A stretch of 64,000 nt of DNA, taken from a virus. Below, in pieces: positions 48,295 to 57,775 of this stretch. Under the pieces are notes generated by a model. It was not told the DNA's origin. It was given only the letters and a program-made list of their open reading frames with translations, and searched no databases. The DNA lies in the IMG/VR virus record IMGVR_UViG_3300027741_000002, positions 32,001 to 96,000 of that record; one strand, given 5' to 3'. Position 1 is the first letter of the stretch; the number at the start of each line of letters is the position of its first letter. The position numbers and the translations under genes are program-made.

Positions 48295-48455
48295 CGGTTC
48301 CTCTTTATCTCTGGTCGTCTTTTTGAAATCTCATACTTGCTAACATCTACTCCTTTTTTCTTGAGCCAGTCCTTAGCAACTTCTTCATTGATGAATTCAC
48401 CTAGCCACTCACCTTGCTCATTAAAAACATTTACCAAATCATATAGTGAACTCAT
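48291..48455 (-). CDS. small hypothetical protein
   Basis: ATG 48455 (ATGA overlap) MSSLYDLVNVFNEQGEWLGEF. Confidence 0.6.
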   Translation of the reverse strand: MSSLYDLVNVFNEQGEWLGEFINEEVAKDWLKKKGVDVSKYEISKRRPEIKRNR

Positions 48456-49054
48456 TGGGCTACCGCACGATTCGTTTGTTTGATTGGCGAGTAGCATTTA
48501 CTTTTACCTGTTTTTGGAGTTAGGTATCCGTAACGCGCAAGACGGAATCTAAGAGCTCCGTGTGTCACGCCAAGACATTTTGCGAGTCGATACAAGGTTA
48601 CACCCTCAACTGAATATACATGCCACACGAGTGCAGAGTATTCCTCAGCTTCCTTACGATACGTAGAATGGTCATAGCGAACTTTCTGCGCAAGAGGTTG
48701 AAGCTCAAGTAGACGAGCTAATGTTTCAGGTGAAGGTTCAACATACTCTGGATCTCCTGGGACTTCAATTTCTCTAGTCTCTAGCTCAGGCACAGGGAAC
48801 TCACCGGGATTAGAAAGAATATAGACAATGTTAGCAGGAGACGCCATTAGCTGAATTTGGCGAATACGCTCACGAGTAAGATCAAGTGCAAAGGCAATTG
48901 ACTCGAGGGTCCAGCCTTTTAACCGAAGAGCTTTAACGTACGCCGCGCGTAGGTCCTTATCAGTTGTCAAGTTAAGGGCAAGCGTAGTAACTGCCGGCAT
49001 TGTTTGATGCTGGTTAACAGATACTTGCTTTTTAACTCTAGGTCGTTTTTTCAT
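48452..49054 (-). CDS. double-HTH DNA-binding protein (sigma region-4-like N-terminal HTH)
   Basis: GWTLESIAFALDLTRERIRQI; GVTLYRLAKCLGVTHGALRFRL. Confidence 0.8.
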   Translation of the reverse strand: MKKRPRVKKQVSVNQHQTMPAVTTLALNLTTDKDLRAAYVKALRLKGWTLESIAFALDLTRERIRQIQLMASPANIVYILSNPGEFPVPELETREIEVPGDPEYVEPSPETLARLLELQPLAQKVRYDHSTYRKEAEEYSALVWHVYSVEGVTLYRLAKCLGVTHGALRFRLARYGYLTPKTGKSKCYSPIKQTNRAVAQ

Positions 49055-49063
49055 TTGTAATCC

Positions 49064-49270
49064 TTAGTCTATTGCTAGTGGGTCGCAGGTTGGGAGAGCA
49101 TGTGTTCTCCAGTCAGTAAGAATCTGTTCAAGTACCTCGTGGTACTCATAGGGAAGATCCTCTGATACTTTTTTCATCATTGCATACCACTTTGCAGTAT
49201 CCGCAAAAACGTTTTCATGTTCCTCTACGTAGTAGGCGCAGAAGTCACAGAGAGTTAGTTCGTCACTCAC
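49064..49270 (-). CDS. hypothetical protein
   Basis: 68 aa ORF, CDFC. Confidence 0.6.
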   Translation of the reverse strand: MSDELTLCDFCAYYVEEHENVFADTAKWYAMMKKVSEDLPYEYHEVLEQILTDWRTHALPTCDPLAID

Positions 49271-49431
49271 ACAACCACCGGCAATTGATTCTTGATGCGT
49301 GCTTGAAGATCTGACACGCAGTGAGCAAGATGATGGAATCCTGAGTCCTGGCAGAATTTCTTTTCCTTGCCAAGTGCACGGATAATAAGTTCAATGTCTT
49401 TATCTGTAAGATCTTTAATGTCGATGTTCAT
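49267..49431 (-). CDS. small hypothetical protein (54 aa)
   Basis: Manual: MNIDIKDLTDKDIELIIRALGKEKK...; follows promoter/RBS motif. Confidence 0.65.
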   Translation of the reverse strand: MNIDIKDLTDKDIELIIRALGKEKKFCQDSGFHHLAHCVSDLQARIKNQLPVVV

Positions 49432-49460
49432 GGTTTATCCTTCCGTCGTTGGTGAGTTAA

Positions 49461-49751
49461 TTATATCTTATCTGTTGTTAAAAGTACAGCCTTCTTGACA
49501 AGTTCAACTACATCTCGGTTGAATCCACCGATGTTGTACTCCATAACTTCATCCATGTCAGGTGCGCCTAAGTCGTAGCGCTTCCAATCGTAGATTGTTG
49601 CAACTGAACCATCTGAAAAAGTGTGGACCCATTCAACAGTAACTTTATCTCCTGGGTAATAAAAAGTTGGTTCATCAAATGCTGAGATGAGATCTCGCAT
49701 CGTGGTAGTGACATACCCTTGTAGGGATGTGCCATTTTTAATGTCATGCAT
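49461..49751 (-). CDS. conserved phage hypothetical protein
   Basis: GTSLQG, DKVTVEW, ATIYDWK, YNIGG. Confidence 0.75.
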   Translation of the reverse strand: MHDIKNGTSLQGYVTTTMRDLISAFDEPTFYYPGDKVTVEWVHTFSDGSVATIYDWKRYDLGAPDMDEVMEYNIGGFNRDVVELVKKAVLLTTDKI

Positions 49752-49792
49752 TTTCTTGTCCTTTCGTCGTTGATAGTACTATTATAACATGT

Positions 49793-50008
49793 TTACTTGT
49801 CGAAGTACACTATTTCGATGAATTCTTTTGCCCAGCCTGTGAGCCCAGCTTCCATCTTGTTTTTGTGATGACCGCAGAAGAATAGCTCTCCGCTTTGGCC
49901 GACGACTTTCCAGATTGCCTGAGCTGTCTGGCATGAATCACAAGGAACCCAACTGTAAGACTCCTGGGTTGTCTCTTCTACTACTTCTTCGGTAATGGTG
50001 GACTCCAC
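49793..50008 (-). CDS. small Zn-binding protein
   Basis: CDSC..ELFFCGHH. Confidence 0.7.
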   Translation of the reverse strand: MESTITEEVVEETTQESYSWVPCDSCQTAQAIWKVVGQSGELFFCGHHKNKMEAGLTGWAKEFIEIVYFDK

Positions 50009-50044
50009 GTCTTCTCCCTAGCTCGTAGTTAGATAATACTTGGT

Positions 50045-50284
50045 TTAGAAGTTGTCGTTTGGGTCATACCAACCTTCGCGGGAGTTTTCCTCACCGCACT
50101 TGTTGCACACCCACTCAGCAGTCCAAGTTATCTCGCCGTGCGAGTACTCTTCTATGCTAGGAACTTCGTAGCATGCGTCACATGTATCGTTGCCGCAATC
50201 GAGTTCTTGAACGCTTTCACTTTCGTTTGACCCGGCAATTTGAGGTTCAAATCCAGAAACTCCTGGTGGATAGTTGCTTGACAT
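50045..50284 (-). CDS. small Zn-ribbon protein
   Basis: ATG 50284 after RBS motif; MSSNYPPGV..C..C..CNKC. Confidence 0.7.
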   Translation of the reverse strand: MSSNYPPGVSGFEPQIAGSNESESVQELDCGNDTCDACYEVPSIEEYSHGEITWTAEWVCNKCGEENSREGWYDPNDNF

Positions 50285-50324
50285 GATGTGTCCTTTCGTC
50301 GTTGGGTTAATTATATCAGGATAA

Positions 50325-50522
50325 TCAGGAAGATTCAAGGACAGAGCAATCGAATGATAAGGCGATTCCTCTATTTCTTTCTTCGGCATTGGGCAGGTCG
50401 CTGACGTCAATCTCTTCGTCCATTACCTGTTGCATCAAAGCCTTAGCCTGCTCTTCGTTGTCGGCATCAAACCAAACCTGGTTCATTGCTACCTCATCGA
50501 AGCGAAATGTAAACTTAGCCAT
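50325..50522 (-). CDS. hypothetical protein
   Basis: ATG 50522 after promoter and RBS motif; MAKFTFRFDE..FDADNEEQA. Confidence 0.7.
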   Translation of the reverse strand: MAKFTFRFDEVAMNQVWFDADNEEQAKALMQQVMDEEIDVSDLPNAEERNRGIALSFDCSVLESS

Positions 50523-50574
50523 TAGTAATCCTTCCGTCGTTGTAAGGTTAATTATATCAGGTTTTCTTCCATAA

Positions 50575-50860
50575 AGTAAAATAAGAGTGGGACCAGCCCA
50601 TGTCGAATGAAAACTGGTCCCACAACTACTGGACAGGCGTCTCTCCCTCAACTCTTTGGGCCGACCTCAAAAGCTTTAGCCTAACTAAGCACCTTGCTTT
50701 ACTCTTGGTAGAGTCTCTACGAATAACACTAAGCAATGCAGAGGTCTTATGACATACAGTTGCTACCCTTTCCGCACCTTACTAGCTTATTGGGAGTACT
50801 CCACCATGTGGAACCCGTACGCCTTCAGGCTTGGTTAGTCCAATCCTTTTATTTAGTTAT
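50575..50860 (-). ncRNA. candidate structured non-coding RNA (~285 nt)
   Basis: Promoter copy at 50865-50877, no RBS motif or ORF, seven mutually compatible stems, strong terminator hairpin 50587-50623 with T-tract. Confidence 0.6.
50587..50623 (-). terminator. intrinsic terminator
   Basis: GTGGGACCAG/CTGGTCCCAC stem followed by TCTTATTTTACTTT. Confidence 0.7.
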
Positions 50861-50877
50861 AGTTGAATTATATCAGG

Positions 50878-51057
50878 TTATTCCCAATCTGTTAGGTATA
50901 CTGCCTCGAAGTCAGCCAATGGGCGTTTCAACCCAACTGAAGCCATCTGCAGCATCCGGTCAACGTCCGCGCGCTTGCGCGCCCTAAACTTTGAGATACG
51001 TTCGCCCGTATGAACATCACGGATCTCCCAGATGCCGGCAGATGCATTTTTACTCAT
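50878..51057 (-). CDS. small hypothetical protein (59 aa)
   Basis: Manual: MSKNASAGIWEIRDVHTGERISKFRARK...; ATGA overlap with upstream gene. Confidence 0.6.
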   Translation of the reverse strand: MSKNASAGIWEIRDVHTGERISKFRARKRADVDRMLQMASVGLKRPLADFEAVYLTDWE

Positions 51058-51425
51058 GAGAAGAACTTAGTCTCTGCTTCGTATGCTCTACGAAGCTTCT
51101 CCGCAAGTTCCTCGAGCTGTAACTGCCAAGGATACGGCAAAGGCAGGTTGTCACCTTCATCGTCCGTTCCACCGGTGAACACGATGTCACCCATAATGAT
51201 GTCCGTCATGCCGAAGCTTTTCTCCCACATGTGCGTGCCGATGATATTTGGTTGCATGCCGTTAATAAGCTTGCCCTCTTCGTTGCACCATAGTGTTAGG
51301 TTGTCGTGCAGGTCAGCTGCTTGAACCAAGCCACCGACTGCTCCCTGGAGTTGTTCGAGACTGTCCACCTCAAGATCTAAGATCTCTGTGGTGAAGTCCG
51401 TGTTAATTCGCAATGCTGTTTTCAT
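51054..51425 (-). CDS. DUF3846-like protein
   Basis: LEQLQGAVGGLVQ, LWCNEEGKL..PN, IMGDIVFTG. Confidence 0.8.
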   Translation of the reverse strand: MKTALRINTDFTTEILDLEVDSLEQLQGAVGGLVQAADLHDNLTLWCNEEGKLINGMQPNIIGTHMWEKSFGMTDIIMGDIVFTGGTDDEGDNLPLPYPWQLQLEELAEKLRRAYEAETKFFS

Positions 51426-51428
51426 AGT

Positions 51429-51626
51429 TTACTCGATCTCTTCAATAAATTCTTGAACCGCATCTGTCACCGCGTCATTAAGTAAGTCGTGTAACTTGTC
51501 GAGTTGAGCTGCAGTAAAAGATTCAGCGGTGTACTCGTCGGTGTCACGCATGTAGTTCGCGTGGTCAAGAAAATCTTCGACTGTCATTGTGTAGCTGTAT
51601 AGTACGTGATCTGCTGGGTAACTCAT
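51429..51626 (-). CDS. hypothetical protein
   Basis: Own promoter and RBS motif. Confidence 0.7.
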   Translation of the reverse strand: MSYPADHVLYSYTMTVEDFLDHANYMRDTDEYTAESFTAAQLDKLHDLLNDAVTDAVQEFIEEIE

Positions 51627-51692
51627 TGTGTATCCTTCCGTCGTTGTGTTGGTTTAATTATATCAGGTAGTGGGGAAGAAGTACAGGGTGCC

Positions 51693-51986
51693 TCAGCAGA
51701 GGCAAACCCCGGACTTTGATGGTATTGTGAAACAGTTACCGCAGACTACCGGAGCTGGGGTTAGTGGTTTGTTTGAGTGTCTGTGGTGACTTGTCGCACC
51801 AATGTTAATAAGCTTTGTTGAGACTGAGTAGTAAGAGCGTCCTAAAACTTTTGCTATCTCCTTTATAGACTTGCCAGAGGCTTTCATAGTCTCAAGTTCG
51901 CGAGCTTCAGCTAAGGTCCATTCGGACCCTGTGTTGACCGCAGCCTCAAGGGAGCGGCTTTGAGTTTCAATAAGCCAGGTGTTCAT
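51693..51986 (-). CDS. HTH protein with C-terminal Cys cluster
   Basis: WTLAE..GKSIKEIAKVLGRSYYSV; CGNC..CLC. Confidence 0.75.
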   Translation of the reverse strand: MNTWLIETQSRSLEAAVNTGSEWTLAEARELETMKASGKSIKEIAKVLGRSYYSVSTKLINIGATSHHRHSNKPLTPAPVVCGNCFTIPSKSGVCLC

Positions 51987-52057
51987 TTGAATCCTTCCGT
52001 CGTTGTTATAGTACTATTATAACATGTATCTATTATAAAGTACAACACCTTCCGGAA

Positions 52058-52288
52058 TTACTTTTTGTTGTTTTCAAACTCCCAGTAGCTTTTGGCTAGT
52101 TCGTAGAACATCTGGGCAAGACCTGGAGTAATCTCATAACCGATCTGCTCGCAGGCATCGCGGCAATAACCGTTCTCAAGGCTATCGTTAATCTCACCAA
52201 CCGCGTCAGCAGCTGAGAAGATGTATCCGGTGTCGGACATCGTAAAGAATGTATCCATGCCCTCATGGGCAACGTAAATGTTGTTCAT
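52058..52288 (-). CDS. hypothetical protein
   Basis: ATG 52288 (TAATG overlap) MNNIYVAHEG. Confidence 0.55.
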   Translation of the reverse strand: MNNIYVAHEGMDTFFTMSDTGYIFSAADAVGEINDSLENGYCRDACEQIGYEITPGLAQMFYELAKSYWEFENNKK

Positions 52289-52407
52289 TATCCTACCTGC
52301 ATAAGCTCGCCGCAATCGGCACACCAATATGAATCTCCAAGAATAGAGTCATCATCATACTCGTGGGTCCACTCAACGTGAGCGCACTTAACTGTGGTGG
52401 TACTCAT
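52288..52407 (-). CDS. 39 aa Zn-ribbon microprotein
   Basis: MSTTTVKCAHVEWTHEYDDDSILGDSYWCADCGELMQVG after ACGACGAAAGGA. Confidence 0.6.
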   Translation of the reverse strand: MSTTTVKCAHVEWTHEYDDDSILGDSYWCADCGELMQVG

Positions 52408-52507
52408 GTCTATCCTTTCGTCGTTTAGATGGGCAACCAGCGGAAGAAAGTCTGGTAGACTCTCGCCTACAGTTTCATATCCGCTGGCTGCGCGTAGTAC
52501 TATTATA

Positions 52508-53425
52508 TCAGGTTTGGTAGAACTTTAGTTCGAAATTGGTAAGAGTTCGGTAGGCGTTTTGTAGGGACGCGTTGACCTTGCCCATGACCGTATCTAGGGT
52601 AGAACAATCAGATAGGCTTTGAGCCAGTCTGGTGGCCACAAGTACGGTAGCATTCGAGGTACCTAGGGTAACTGTCGTGTTTCCCTGGACGTCGGTTGTG
52701 GCGGCCCTTCCAAGGGCATACAGGTCAAGGTCTGGCCCGGAGTTAGAGATCAACATGATTGGGTAGACCCAACCGGTGACTTCCTTCATGGAGTACGGGG
52801 TATCCGTTGCTCCTACGGCGATTGCCTGAGGGATACATGCCGGATAGTTAACTTTCTTTTGGTCAGAGTTGTTGCCTGAAGAAATAACCGTTGGGATATT
52901 CTTTGCAGCAAGCTGAACGATAAGTGGTTGAAGCTTTGGATCCGACGATACAGGACACGCTGCTTCCTTGTAGACACGACCGATTGATACGGATACCGCG
53001 CCGACATTGAGTCTGTCAGCGTTTGCCGCAACCCAATCAAGTGCAAGTGTGACAGCTTTAGTTGTATAAGTAGTTGCGTATCCTTTAGCGCTCATGCCGA
53101 CGATGCGGATGAACACGATCTTTACATTTGGATTAGCAGCTACCGCAACCGAAGCCATCTGCGTTCCGTGGCTCATGGCCTTGTCGACTACGAGCTTTGG
53201 GTCTAAAGATGCAGCTCCGGGACCGACCATACTTGGTAGCATGTTTGGGCAGTTGCCGAACTCGATGAAGCAAGCTTCCTCAACTACCGCGGCCTTAGCC
53301 CAAGGTAGTTGCGTGTTGATACCGGAGTCGATGATGACAAGAGTTTTGTCTCCTGCCGCATGCGCCGGTGTTATTAGCAATGACAGACCTAAGGCTGCCG
53401 CAATCAGTAGTACTTTTGTTTTCAT
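52508..53425 (-). CDS. secreted subtilisin-like serine protease (S8)
   Basis: Signal peptide (..PAHA), IIDSG, HGTQMAS, SSGN, YPAC..AVGA, GTSNAT. Confidence 0.88.
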   Translation of the reverse strand: MKTKVLLIAAALGLSLLITPAHAAGDKTLVIIDSGINTQLPWAKAAVVEEACFIEFGNCPNMLPSMVGPGAASLDPKLVVDKAMSHGTQMASVAVAANPNVKIVFIRIVGMSAKGYATTYTTKAVTLALDWVAANADRLNVGAVSVSIGRVYKEAACPVSSDPKLQPLIVQLAAKNIPTVISSGNNSDQKKVNYPACIPQAIAVGATDTPYSMKEVTGWVYPIMLISNSGPDLDLYALGRAATTDVQGNTTVTLGTSNATVLVATRLAQSLSDCSTLDTVMGKVNASLQNAYRTLTNFELKFYQT

Positions 53426-53518: not shown

Positions 53519-55315
53519 TTACGCAGCATTACGTGCGCCAATCTTTGTTAGAGCGTCTGCCGCAGCTTTTCCGATTTGGAGTGCAGCGTCTGCTGGGTCT
53601 TTCACATCTTGTAATAGGGCAACTGATGTTCCCTTAACTATGCTACGGACATATTCTAGTTGATATTCTTGTGTGAAAGGAAGCCACATGATTGCGACCC
53701 CTGACTTCTCACATTCGCGAACCCACTTCTTAGCATTCTCTATCTCATCTGGTGTATAGCAACCATCGCTAACAACCACGAGTAGACGAGCGCCAGTTCC
53801 ATTGAGAAGATTTAGAGAACCATCGAGTGCCTTGAACGCCTTATCGAACTTTTCAGTTGCATCAGGAGCTGTATAGACATTTACCTCAGGAAGATGCTGC
53901 CCTGGCTTTAGAGTAGGGAATACACCTGAACCATAGTAGACCATTGCGCAACGTCCTTGAACGCGTCGCACTGCCTCGGACATTGCCCAGGCGGTAACTG
54001 CCATTGGCTGCATTGCGTCTGCCATTGAACCAGAGATGTCAACCATAACTCCAACGTTAAGTGTTGGGTCATCAGTATGCTTACGCACTGTACGCTTCCA
54101 TGGCTCTGCATGCATCATTGAACCACGAGCTTTGTACGCAGCTTCTTGAACCATCGCACGAGAACGTAGACGCCCTGGAGGAAGAATCGAAGTTACTTCC
54201 TTTTCATCGCGCTCACGATACTTTGCACGCTCAAGCATGTTTGCGATTTTCACCGCAGCCGCACGCTCTGGACCAGATGGTGCACGAGTCTCCTTGATGC
54301 GTGAGTAGCTACCAGAGCTTCCTAGCTCAGCAGTAGACTTGTTGAAGACTTCATCTGAAATCTTTTCATGATCTCTTTGTTGTTTTGCGGCCTTGCCACG
54401 AAGATCAACAACGTCATTCCAGTCTTCCTTCTGCTCTTGTTCCTGGGCTTCGTCGCCAATTGCAATTGCAATATCTTCCGCTGCTTCTTCAAGGGCTTCA
54501 ATAATCTCTGCGATGATACCTGCCATAGCAGCAGTGACAGGATTGTCTTCCTCTTCATCACTGTTCTCTTTAGAAACTTCAGAGATAAGCTTTTCCCATT
54601 CGCGGGCAAGTTCGTAAAGTGGCAGAGCGTTTGTGTGCCCTTCATACTTTTGGAATCGAAGCCAGATGTCACGAAGTTGTGAATAGCGAGTATCACCAAA
54701 GTACTCAGCGACAAGCTCTTGAACGTCTAGAGCATCTTCGTTATCTAGTGAACCTGCATCAACACGAGCACATACGAGAGCAGCTAACTGCGCCATAGCA
54801 CGAGTAGTGGTGCTCTTCTCTAGATATTCACGAACGTCATCAAGGATGATGTCCATCGCGCACGCGCGAAGGAACACTCGGTTAGCTGGGAAGTTTTCTA
54901 TACCGAAAGCTTCAATGCGAGTCTCCTCAAGAATAGTAAGTGCCTGAAGTTCATTCTTTGAAAGATCCTCGTGGGCTTTGAATAAATCGTAGCGAGAGTA
55001 ACGAGCGTGTAGTGCCTCATGAAAGATCGCACCGGATGCTCGTGGATAATCGAATTGTGTTCCGCGCTCGCGGACGTCTCCTATATTCTCAGGAGTTACT
55101 GTTGGACCGAAGGCAACAGAGACGTTTACCTCGACCTCAGCCATTGGTGGGTTGAAGCAGGCTGGTGCAGATTGCCCAGCGCCTGGGCCAACGTAGGCAA
55201 CGATGTCTGAGCGTCCTGCCCAGGTGTTGACTAGCTCGCCGAGTTGAGCTCCGACCTTTAGCCATTCCGGCGGAGTCTGTTCCGCGCGGGTTTTAGAAAC
55301 CTTTATATGTGCCAT
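53519..55315 (-). CDS. VWA-domain protein with N-terminal HExxH metallopeptidase-like domain
   Basis: FHEALHA..LEETRIE; PPGRL; MIDAS DISGSM, T, VSDG. Confidence 0.85.
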   Translation of the reverse strand: MAHIKVSKTRAEQTPPEWLKVGAQLGELVNTWAGRSDIVAYVGPGAGQSAPACFNPPMAEVEVNVSVAFGPTVTPENIGDVRERGTQFDYPRASGAIFHEALHARYSRYDLFKAHEDLSKNELQALTILEETRIEAFGIENFPANRVFLRACAMDIILDDVREYLEKSTTTRAMAQLAALVCARVDAGSLDNEDALDVQELVAEYFGDTRYSQLRDIWLRFQKYEGHTNALPLYELAREWEKLISEVSKENSDEEEDNPVTAAMAGIIAEIIEALEEAAEDIAIAIGDEAQEQEQKEDWNDVVDLRGKAAKQQRDHEKISDEVFNKSTAELGSSGSYSRIKETRAPSGPERAAAVKIANMLERAKYRERDEKEVTSILPPGRLRSRAMVQEAAYKARGSMMHAEPWKRTVRKHTDDPTLNVGVMVDISGSMADAMQPMAVTAWAMSEAVRRVQGRCAMVYYGSGVFPTLKPGQHLPEVNVYTAPDATEKFDKAFKALDGSLNLLNGTGARLLVVVSDGCYTPDEIENAKKWVRECEKSGVAIMWLPFTQEYQLEYVRSIVKGTSVALLQDVKDPADAALQIGKAAADALTKIGARNAA

Positions 55316-57622: not shown

Positions 57623-57775
57623 TGCGCATCCTTCCGTCATTAAAATTAGTAACGATGAAGGCGCCGTATTGTTTCGGACCCCTGCAGGTTTCGAGTCTTT
57701 AGTTTGGCCAGCGGCCGCCCCTTCATCGTTATGAGTTAATTATATCAGGTACATAATTAAAAGTAAAATAGGAAA

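What the first reader, a model, noticed from the sequence alone, without database searches (positions are those of the whole stretch)
50575..50877. Stand-alone ~285 nt structured ncRNA with its own promoter and terminator
Seen: of the ~18 promoter copies, this one (50865-50877) is not followed by the usual RBS motif or any ORF over a few codons on the coding strand. The transcript ends in a strong terminator. Compatible nested stems (+ coordinates): 50838-44/50628-34, 50819-24/50635-40, 50792-96/50643-47, hairpin 50800-12, 50741-46/50663-68, 50731-36/50694-99, hairpin 50708-20. 5'/3' end pairing with multibranched interior suggests a folded RNA. Inference: an early-expressed phage RNA, for example an RNA polymerase-binding Ms1/6S-like decoy or an anti-defence sponge; I could not assign it to a known family.
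Basis: partly seen in the sequence, partly recalled or inferred. Interest (0 to 1): 0.8.

Follow-up and report, generated by a model that had tools for sequence, protein, structure and literature searches.

The report
New structured RNA of freshwater actinophages

Summary
The unit is real. On the minus strand, a copy of the repeated early promoter (50877-50867) is followed by about 290 ORF-free bases, a strong hairpin (50623-50587) and a U-rich tail.

- **Family:** I found 57 distinct homologous cassettes in related viral and metagenome contigs.
- **Shape:** The 49 full-length members share a core of 209-233 nt, closed by a 5'/3' helix (P1), with a conserved 5' domain (P3-P4-P5).
- **Covariation:** On a MAFFT alignment of 31 distinct 5' domains, 96% of cells pair. 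Six of 12 pairs change on both sides. The covariation score is 0.242, against 0.088 in shuffles (0 of 500 reach it).
- **Coding:** No ORF is conserved on either strand.
- **Known families:** No Rfam family matches.
- **Expression:** Contigs from four RNA libraries of four studies cover the core at 100% identity.

Against it, the single-sequence fold is no better than shuffles (z -0.73 for the core). Two conflict with the family consensus. The 3' domain of the window's own subgroup is unresolved.

The host is actinobacterial by capsid and DUF3846 relatives. Function is unknown. My best guess is a stable trans-acting, protein-binding RNA made early in infection. A 6S/Ms1-like architecture is not supported.

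The scan noted this same stretch once more in an overlapping window, but not on other DNA.

The parts
50890..50895 (-). -35-like hexamer CTAACA, 17 nt upstream of the -10 box
50867..50877 (-). Extended -10 promoter copy CCTGATATAAT (TATAAT at 50872-50867), one of 13 exact minus-strand copies
50846..50860 (-). Short A/U-rich leader between the inferred start (about 50860, not measured) and P1. Many group A members lack it and start 1-2 nt before P1
   Evidence: the start site is inferred
50627..50845 (-). RNA core (219 nt), closed by P1. End-to-end match to family model R1 (35.1 bits, E 1e-9). Single copy in the 129.5-kb genome
50838..50844 (-). P1, 5' strand (AUUGGAC)
   Evidence: Compensatory variants GGAC/GUCC, GGGC/GCCC, GGAAC/GUUCC and GAAC/GUUC are seen
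50628..50634 (-). P1, 3' strand (GUCCAGU). RNA-library contigs of two studies end at 50629 and 50630
50780..50843 (-). Conserved 5' domain: match to core model R2, 67.6 bits, E 1.3e-13
50821..50823 (-). P3, 5' strand (GGC). It pairs with 50784-50786 (GCU). Two more pairs follow: 50819-50818 with 50788-50789
   Evidence: A-U, G-C and G-U variants at the outer pair
50784..50786 (-). P3, 3' strand (GCU)
50814..50816 (-). P4, 5' strand (GGG). It pairs with 50792-50794 (CCC). The first pair is U-A in L017/L018 and C-G in L020/L021
50792..50794 (-). P4, 3' strand (CCC)
50800..50812 (-). P5 hairpin UCCAC-AUG-GUGGA. The stem covaries (CCC/GGG, CCAC/GUGG, UCUC/GAGA, CUGCC/GGCAG)
50791..50817 (-). The end positions 50817 (C) and 50791 (A) flank P4 and covary non-canonically: A with G in 33, C with A in 12, A with A in 4 of 49 members
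50635..50783 (-). Variable 3' domain. It cannot be aligned between subgroups, and its fold in the window's subgroup is unresolved
50587..50623 (-). Terminator-like hairpin: 13 pairs, 11-nt loop, -22 kcal/mol, z -5.08
   Evidence: Stems at the equivalent place covary in group A
50575..50586 (-). U-rich tail UCUUAUUUUACU. Bases 50580-50575 also serve as the -35 (TTTACT) of the next promoter
50551..50561 (-). Next promoter copy, which drives the 65-aa ORF 50522-50325

Best explanation
**Shown.** This is a gene for a stand-alone structured non-coding RNA. It belongs to a family confined, as far as I could search, to one clade of roughly 130-kb freshwater phages of Actinomycetota.

- A host-type promoter (-35 plus extended -10) starts the transcript.
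- The RNA folds into a core of about 215 nt in which the 5' and 3' ends pair (P1).
- P1 closes a conserved 5' domain: an irregular helix P3-P4, an asymmetric internal loop and the P5 hairpin. In most subgroups a further helix, P2, encloses this domain.
- A 3' domain follows that differs between subgroups.
- A GC-rich hairpin with a U-rich tail ends transcription before the next promoter.

**Inferred.** The RNA is made early, at the same time as the other promoter cassettes. Its 3' end is trimmed back to P1, and it is stable. It acts in trans by binding a protein through the conserved 5' domain, as a decoy or scaffold during host takeover, while the variable 3' domain gives stability or bulk. 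The partner is unknown.
For: **Anatomy.** Promoter, ORF-free body and hairpin are all in place.

**Homologs.**
- The motif scan gave 23 true hits among 25 in viral contigs and 52 true hits among 59 in metagenome contigs.
- Together these are 57 distinct sequences, plus a further variant in L020/L021.
- The 49 full-length members have cores of 209-233 nt despite an unalignable middle.

**Covariation.**

| Alignment | Cells paired | Pairs changed on both sides | Score vs shuffles | Best slid control |
|---|---|---|---|---|
| Group A (31 sequences), hand-drawn structure | 96.2% | 13 of 55 | 0.187 vs 0.102 (0/500) | 0.063 |
| Model-fitted alignment of 50 matches | 95.7% | 35 of 55 | 0.210 vs 0.097 (0/500) | 0.042 |
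| MAFFT alignment of 31 distinct 5' domains, all subgroups, not fitted | 96.0% | 6 of 12 | 0.242 vs 0.088 (0/500) | 0.074 |

- G-U pairs are frequent, for example U-G 14 against U-A 10 at one P2 pair. This fits the minus strand as the RNA strand.

**Not coding.**
- The mini-frame around the AUG in the P5 loop is read in different frames in groups A and B, although the bases are conserved (my reading).
- ORFs on either strand differ in place, frame and length between close relatives. Two of the 16 members I looked at have none of 35 aa or more.

**Modular.**
- Neighbours on both sides vary.
- In L017, L018, L020 and L021 the RNA lies about 2 kb away, on the other side of the DUF3846 gene.

**RNA libraries.** In 4 of 4 runs laid, from 4 studies, a contig covers 187-219 nt of the core with 0 differing letters. 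One contig carries adapter-like loose letters at 50629.

Against: - Thermodynamic stability of the window's own sequence is ordinary: z -0.73 for the core and -1.51 for the full unit.
- Forcing the family helices onto the window costs 4.6 kcal/mol against the free minimum.
- The free minimum contains a competing 9-bp helix, 50806-50798 with 50714-50706.
- The window's subgroup has only 8 near-identical members, so its P2 and 3' domain are not established.
- The structures were drawn by me from these same sequences. The alignment is fitted to the model. The sequences are related, so the shuffle counts are not probabilities.
- RNA-library contigs do not prove transcription, strand or ends, as the tool itself warns.
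- Nothing here bears directly on the inferred mechanism: action in trans, a protein partner, or early timing.
- In L020/L021 the hairpin has no U tract and no promoter before the next gene, so there the RNA may be a 5' leader.
Confidence: 0.5

Rival explanations
1. It is a cis-acting leader. On this view the conserved 5' domain modifies RNA polymerase (processive antitermination, as HK022 put RNA does) or senses a ligand (a riboswitch). It would so control read-through of the hairpin into the downstream early genes.
For: - The RNA sits directly behind a promoter.
- In L020/L021 the hairpin lacks a U tract and no promoter precedes the next gene.
- That gene is a homolog of the window's downstream 65-aa ORF.
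Against: - In the window and in groups A, B and C, a U-rich tail and a fresh promoter separate the RNA from the next gene.
- The downstream gene differs between members.
- I saw no conserved alternative pairing between P1 and the terminator stem across subgroups (my reading).
- Laid RNA-library contigs end inside or just after the core (a weak hint only).
Confidence: 0.12
2. It is a 6S/Ms1-like decoy that sequesters host RNA polymerase.
For: - The host is actinobacterial.
- The RNA ends pair.
- The early region also encodes a protein with a sigma-70 region-4 domain (48452-49054), so reprogramming of transcription is plausible.
Against: - No 6S-type or any other Rfam model matches any of the four subgroups, even at E up to 1-10.
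- The consensus is a branched fold with a three-way junction, not a long irregular rod with a central open-promoter-like bubble.
Confidence: 0.1
3. It is an anti-defence RNA: a decoy or sponge for a host immune protein or signal.
For: - It lies in the early takeover region as a modular, moron-like cassette that moves between positions.
- The peripheral domain diverges quickly while the core is conserved.
Against: - There is no repeat structure, and no resemblance to CRISPR repeats or type III antitoxin repeats (and my reading).
- The genome has no reverse transcriptase.
- No defence system of the host is known to me.
Confidence: 0.15
4. It is a DNA-level element, for example a replication origin whose promoter makes a primer or R-loop RNA. 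On this view the conservation would not be for a folded free RNA.
For: A promoter firing into ORF-free DNA is the anatomy of several phage origins (established knowledge, recalled).
Against: - Compensatory changes keep Watson-Crick and G-U pairs on one strand.
- The unit ends in a terminator hairpin.
- The core is found in RNA libraries.
Confidence: 0.04
5. It is a small protein-coding gene on either strand.
For: - The plus strand of the window has a 50-aa ORF (50600-50752) and an 83-aa ORF (50736-50987).
- 32 of 49 members have a reverse-strand ORF of 40 aa or more.
Against: - These ORFs differ in frame, place and length between close relatives, and some members have none.
- Indels in the group A alignment are mostly not multiples of three.
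- The ORF lengths lie within what shuffled sequences give: median 36 aa, 95th percentile 64 aa.
Confidence: 0.02

Closest known systems
Abundant early non-coding RNAs of Cluster A mycobacteriophages (L5, D29, StarStuff; PMC5712189, abstract and passages read)
   Same: - Encoded by an actinophage.
- Made from an early lytic promoter.
- No conserved ORF.
- Stable and abundant.
- Function unknown.
   Different: - No sequence similarity. blastn of the window region and of a group A member against 50,697 phage records found nothing.
- Those RNAs lie at the genome's right end. No covariation-supported fold is described in the passages I read.
6S RNA and Ms1 (RNA polymerase-binding RNAs)
   Same: - Size range of about 200-300 nt.
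- The ends pair.
- Would fit a takeover role in an actinobacterial host.
   Different: - The fold is branched, with no central bubble.
- No Rfam match.
- Binding was not tested.
phi29 pRNA (Rfam Phage_pRNA; name recalled)
   Same: A phage-encoded structured RNA with its own early promoter, acting as an RNA rather than as a message.
   Different: - No match to any Rfam model.
- Different phage type and host.
- No sign here of a link to the packaging genes.
Large orphan structured RNAs linked to phages (GOLLD, ROOL), and the unnamed candidate structured RNAs mined from IMG/VR (PMC10690425, passages read)
   Same: - Found by comparative analysis of viral or metagenome DNA.
- Supported by covariation.
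- Function unknown.
   Different: - GOLLD and ROOL are several-fold larger and gave no Rfam hit here.
- The mined candidates are 29-151 nt long. Their lists are in supplements that I could not open, so part of this RNA, or its terminator, may already be listed there under a number.
HK022 put antitermination RNA
   Same: A structured RNA directly behind an early phage promoter and ahead of a terminator.
   Different: - put is about 70 nt, two stem-loops, and acts in cis (recalled).
- Here a discrete unit with its own terminator and a following promoter is the rule.

Membership tests
6S RNA | Match to the Rfam 6S covariance models | tested here: not met
   - No hit at gathering thresholds in 64 kb.
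- No hit on the RNA body at E up to 10.
- No hit on members of groups A, C and D at E up to 1.
6S RNA | Rod-like fold with a large central bubble between a closing stem and a terminal stem | tested here: not met
   The family consensus has P1 opening into a three-way junction (P2 domain, P7 domain) with further branches.
6S RNA / Ms1 | Binds RNA polymerase holoenzyme (6S) or core (Ms1) | not testable with these tools
   Needs pull-down or co-purification.
Y RNA | Partner Ro/Rsr protein (TROVE domain), and a match to Y RNA models | tested here: not met
   - No TROVE match in the phage genome at E up to 0.1; the control genomes do ring.
- No Rfam hit.
- A host-encoded Rsr was not testable.
Retron or reverse-transcriptase-associated ncRNA | A reverse transcriptase gene in the element | tested here: not met
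   No RVT_1 match in the 129.5-kb genome.
Riboswitch or cis leader | Constant position upstream of one gene family, with the terminator as the only barrier | tested here: not met
   Downstream genes differ, and a new promoter follows the terminator in most members. L020/L021 is the exception.
tRNA / tmRNA | Detected by ARAGORN | tested here: not met
   0 genes in the window.
Protein-coding small gene | An ORF conserved in frame and length among homologs | tested here: not met
Stand-alone structured ncRNA gene (general kind) | Own promoter, own terminator, conserved base-paired structure with compensatory changes, and a transcript | tested here: met
   - Promoter.
- Hairpin.
- Covariation.
- Transcript: only presence in RNA-library contigs is shown. 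Ends and strand were not measured.

The most novel reading that the evidence does not exclude
This is a new class of phage RNA with a fold of its own. On this reading it is made in quantity early in infection of abundant freshwater Actinomycetota. Its conserved 5' domain captures a host protein of transcription, translation or immunity. That would make it a new example of host takeover by an RNA alone, and one visible in lake and river metatranscriptomes.
Probability: 0.3. Interest if true: 0.8.

Novelty: new variant of a known kind. Interest (0 to 1): 0.62.

Why it matters
Structured RNAs above 200 nt with real covariation support and no known relatives are rare. Past examples (6S, pRNA, GOLLD, ROOL, OLE) each opened a line of work.

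This one belongs to phages of freshwater actinobacteria, for which almost no molecular biology exists. It is compact, modular and present in RNA libraries from several studies.

It gives a concrete object for structure probing, cryo-EM and pull-downs. It may also help explain why actinophages (compare L5 and D29) spend so much early transcription on non-coding RNA.

Tried and rejected
**Partner and host leads**
- **Ro-like partner:** The 598-aa protein at 53519-55315 has a weak VWA hit. It has no PDB sequence match. Its Atlas look-alikes are VWA/CoxE/CobT-type proteins, not TROVE. No TROVE domain lies anywhere in the genome. I dropped the idea.
- **Retron-like RNA:** No reverse transcriptase is present.
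- **Antisense regulator of the shared early leaders:** Duplex energies of the core with 12 cassette leaders average -30.8. Shuffled cores give -31.4 +/- 1.7, and 66 of 100 shuffles are as low. There is no enrichment.
- **The 59-aa neighbour (50878-51057) as an obligate partner:** It ends within 120 nt upstream of the RNA in 65 of 96 RNA-bearing loci (not de-duplicated). It is missing in 10 loci that have room for it, and 250-470 nt or about 2 kb away in 15. It is also present where the RNA is not adjacent (L010, L020-L023). Its model (pLDDT 90.4) matches GIY-YIG nuclease cores only weakly (best E 0.061). That is no evidence for RNA binding.
- **A cellular homolog or prophage copy:** The strict motif hits 3 genomes among one per 185,579 species. 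None is supported by the profile. L139 is a partial match at E 0.16 and 0.053. This excludes close copies only.
- **Nearest named phage (Actinomycetia phage DSL-LC01):** No motif with up to 2 mismatches and no R2 match.
- **More distant relatives:** G004-G006 gave no match, but these records are 65-87% complete.

**Methods that fell short**
- Model R1 proved too specific to group A. It missed L017, which nhmmer and R2 both find.
- The fold of the window's 3' domain stayed unresolved. Free and constrained folds disagree between the 8 group B members.
- Within that domain, one local hairpin (core positions 146-150 with 172-176) holds in 8 of 8 members, including a replaced segment in L071/L076.
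- L096/L115 keep the promoter and the 5' domain but have a different, unterminated 3' part within short contigs. The short P1 that the model proposed there may be fortuitous.

**RNA libraries**
- In runs X3 and X6 no contig covers the neighbouring genes.
- In X1 and X2 the core contig has a mean word depth of 53.8 and 23.7, against 2.5-4.9 for the other contigs laid. The tool warns that contig depth and uncovered parts cannot rank genes, so I do not count this as evidence.

**Literature**
- Searches found no description of this RNA.

Full report
**The locus.** The window is bases 32001-96000 of a 129.5-kb viral record with direct terminal repeats. On the minus strand the 11-mer CCTGATATAAT (an extended -10 element) lies at 50877-50867.
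- It occurs 17 times in the window with at most 1 mismatch, against 0.94 expected.
- Thirteen copies are exact, and all lie on the minus strand between 46104 and 58222.
- A -35-like CTAACA sits 17 nt upstream.
- Downstream, the minus strand has no ORF above 36 aa until the next promoter copy at 50561-50551.
- A hairpin at 50623-50587 folds at -22 kcal/mol, z -5.08, with 0 of 200 shuffles as good. The tail UCUUAUUUUACU follows it.
- The scan tool's stricter terminator rule does not list this hairpin, because the loop is 11 nt and the T run starts late.
- ARAGORN finds no tRNA or tmRNA.
- Rfam finds nothing in the window at gathering thresholds. At E up to 10 it finds nothing on the RNA body.

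**Thermodynamics argue neither way.** The full unit folds at -86.2 kcal/mol, z -1.51, with 17 of 200 shuffles as good. The 219-nt core folds at -64.2 kcal/mol, z -0.73, with 49 of 200. The case therefore rests on comparative evidence.

**Homologs.** The upstream DUF3846 protein (51425-51054) led to 52 related viral loci.
- In many of them an ORF-free cassette with the same promoter, about 300 nt and a hairpin lies downstream.
- A degenerate motif from the conserved part found 25 stretches in viral contigs. Two are one coding false positive.
- It found 59 stretches in metagenome contigs. The family profile confirms 52 of them and rejects 7.
- It found 3 stretches in one genome per 185,579 prokaryote species. 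None is confirmed.
- Altogether nhmmer gave 96 hits in 140 sources, which reduce to 57 distinct sequences, 49 of them full length.
- They fall into four groups: A (33 members), B (8, including the window), C (4) and D (4).
- Truncated copies and a divergent short-contig form (L096/L115) also exist. A further group D variant in L020/L021 was found later with the core model.
- The core measures 209-233 nt in all 49, although the middle cannot be aligned between groups.
- The own genome holds one copy.

**Structure: group A.** I drew ten helices on a MAFFT alignment of 31 group A sequences.
- 96.2% of cells pair.
- 13 of 55 pairs change on both sides.
- The covariation score is 0.187, against 0.102 in shuffles (0 of 500 reach it) and at most 0.063 when partners are slid.
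- Frequent G-U pairs fit the minus strand as the RNA strand.

**Structure: full-length model.** Covariance model R1, built from this alignment, matches the window end to end at 50845-50627 (35.1 bits, E 1e-9).
- On the model-fitted alignment of 50 matches, 95.7% of cells pair and 35 of 55 pairs change on both sides.
- That alignment leans towards the structure it was fitted to.

**Structure: the cleanest test.** This is a plain MAFFT alignment of the 31 distinct 5' domains from all groups.
- For P3, P4 and P5, 96.0% of cells pair and 6 of 12 pairs change on both sides.
- The score is 0.242, against 0.088 in shuffles (0 of 500) and at most 0.074 when slid.
- The first P4 pair is G-C in most members, U-A in L017/L018 and C-G in L020/L021.
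- P1 appears as GGAC/GUCC, GGGC/GCCC, GGAAC/GUUCC and GAAC/GUUC.
- Two unpaired positions beside P4 covary non-canonically: A with G in 33, C with A in 12 and A with A in 4 of 49 members.

These structures came from the same related sequences, so the shuffle counts are not probabilities. The slid controls and the three-state pairs are the stronger argument.

**The window's own RNA.** By homology it has these helices:

| Helix | Coordinates |
|---|---|
| P1 | 50844-38 with 50634-28 |
| P3 | 50823-21 with 50786-84 |
| Two A-U pairs | 50819-18 with 50789-88 |
| P4 | 50816-14 with 50794-92 |
| P5 hairpin | 50812-50800 |

- Core model R2 scores this domain at 67.6 bits.
- Enforcing these helices costs 4.6 kcal/mol against the free minimum. 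The free minimum instead pairs 50806-50798 with 50714-50706.
- P2 and the 3' domain cannot be fixed, because the 8 group B members are nearly identical.

- P1 and P5 are confirmed.
- Two conflict with P3 and P4.
- One is broken in 4 of 8 relatives.
- One gets mixed support.
- One never varies.

**Not coding.** The AUG in the P5 loop heads mini-frames of 6-15 codons. These are read in different frames in groups A and B over the same conserved bases, and group D variants lack the AUG.
- Longest ORFs on the RNA strand have a median of 23 aa. On the other strand the median is 50 aa. Shuffled sequences give a median of 36 aa and a 95th percentile of 64 aa.
- These ORFs differ in frame and place between close relatives. 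L024 and L025 have none of 35 aa or more.

**Context and host.**
- The major capsid protein is 71.6% identical to that of a metagenome-assembled Actinomycetia phage. Its other relatives are phages of Microbacterium, Arthrobacter, Gordonia and Mycobacterium.
- All 61 phage records with a DUF3846 relative are mycobacteriophages.
- The cassette is modular. Downstream genes vary.
- The conserved 59-aa neighbour is adjacent in 65 of 96 loci but not in the rest.
- In group D the RNA lies about 2 kb away.
- No isolated phage record matches by blastn.

**Expression.** An index lists 24 runs that hold part of 50400-51000. Twenty-two are on record as RNA. I laid four, from four studies, on 49000-52500.
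- Each run has one contig on the core with no differing letters: 50629-50827, 50641-50827, 50602-50820 and 50630-50833.
- One contig carries 22 loose letters at 50629 that I recognise as sequencing adapter (recalled). Another ends at 50630.
- Both places are the 3' edge of P1, a weak hint that the hairpin is trimmed off.
- Contigs cannot show strand, ends or level, and DNA can be present in RNA libraries.

**Function.** Nothing here identifies a partner.
- I tested and dropped a Ro/Y-RNA link.
- I dropped a retron link.
- I dropped antisense pairing with the shared early leaders.
- The 59-aa neighbour is not an obligate partner.

The consensus fold is not 6S-like. The nearest precedent is functional rather than homologous: Cluster A mycobacteriophages make abundant, stable, early non-coding RNAs that are toxic to the host and unexplained (PMC5712189, abstract and passages read). 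A large mining study of IMG/VR lists thousands of unnamed candidates of 29-151 nt (PMC10690425, passages read). Its supplements were closed, so I cannot say whether a piece of this RNA is already listed there.

**Verdict.** Its mechanism is unknown. I rate a trans-acting protein-binding role as most likely, and a cis leader role as the main rival.

Noticed in passing
window 50878-51057 (-): A 59-aa basic protein, translationally coupled to the DUF3846 gene (ATGA overlap at 51057-51054).
- It is 64-85% identical to the window's copy across the 17 relatives aligned.
- The AlphaFold model is a beta-beta-alpha-beta fold with pLDDT 90.4.
- Foldseek hits are weak only, to GIY-YIG nuclease cores (best E 0.061).
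- No Pfam or PHROG family matches.
   Followed up: partly
window 50575-50580 and the equivalent places in the loci: The U-rich tail of each cassette's terminator doubles as the -35 (TTTACT) of the next promoter. The TTTACTTTATAATAGA...TGnTATAAT arrangement is conserved across the family, so terminator and next promoter form one compact joint.
   Followed up: no
window 52407-52512 (-) and 57680-57749 (-): Two other promoter copies are followed not by the usual ACGACGGAAGGA leader but by GC-rich leaders prone to hairpins. Examples are CCAGCGGA...UCCGCUGG after 52512, and GGGGCGGCCGCUGGCC after 57749. The second has a counterpart in L010 and L057. These may be further structured 5' leaders.
   Followed up: no
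L020 and L021, 1603-1960: A group D variant of the RNA has its own promoter, but its closing hairpin lacks a U tract. It runs straight into a homolog of the window's 65-aa ORF (50522-50325), with the standard ACGACGGAAGGA leader. The RNA may be co-transcribed there.
   Followed up: partly
L096 and L115 (short contigs): These copies keep the promoter, leader and conserved 5' domain, but continue into a different sequence of at least 200 nt with no terminator in view. This may be a fifth subgroup with another 3' domain.
   Followed up: partly
window 50706-50714 and 50798-50806 (-): In the window's subgroup the 3' arm of P5 can instead form a perfect 9-bp helix with the 3' arm of hairpin 50708-20. 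This is a possible alternative conformation. It cannot be tested because neither side varies.
   Followed up: no
window 53519-55315 (-) and 48452-49054 (-): The early region also encodes a 598-aa protein that resembles VWA/CoxE/CobT-type proteins (Atlas look-alikes), and a 200-aa protein with a sigma-70 region-4 domain.
   Followed up: partly
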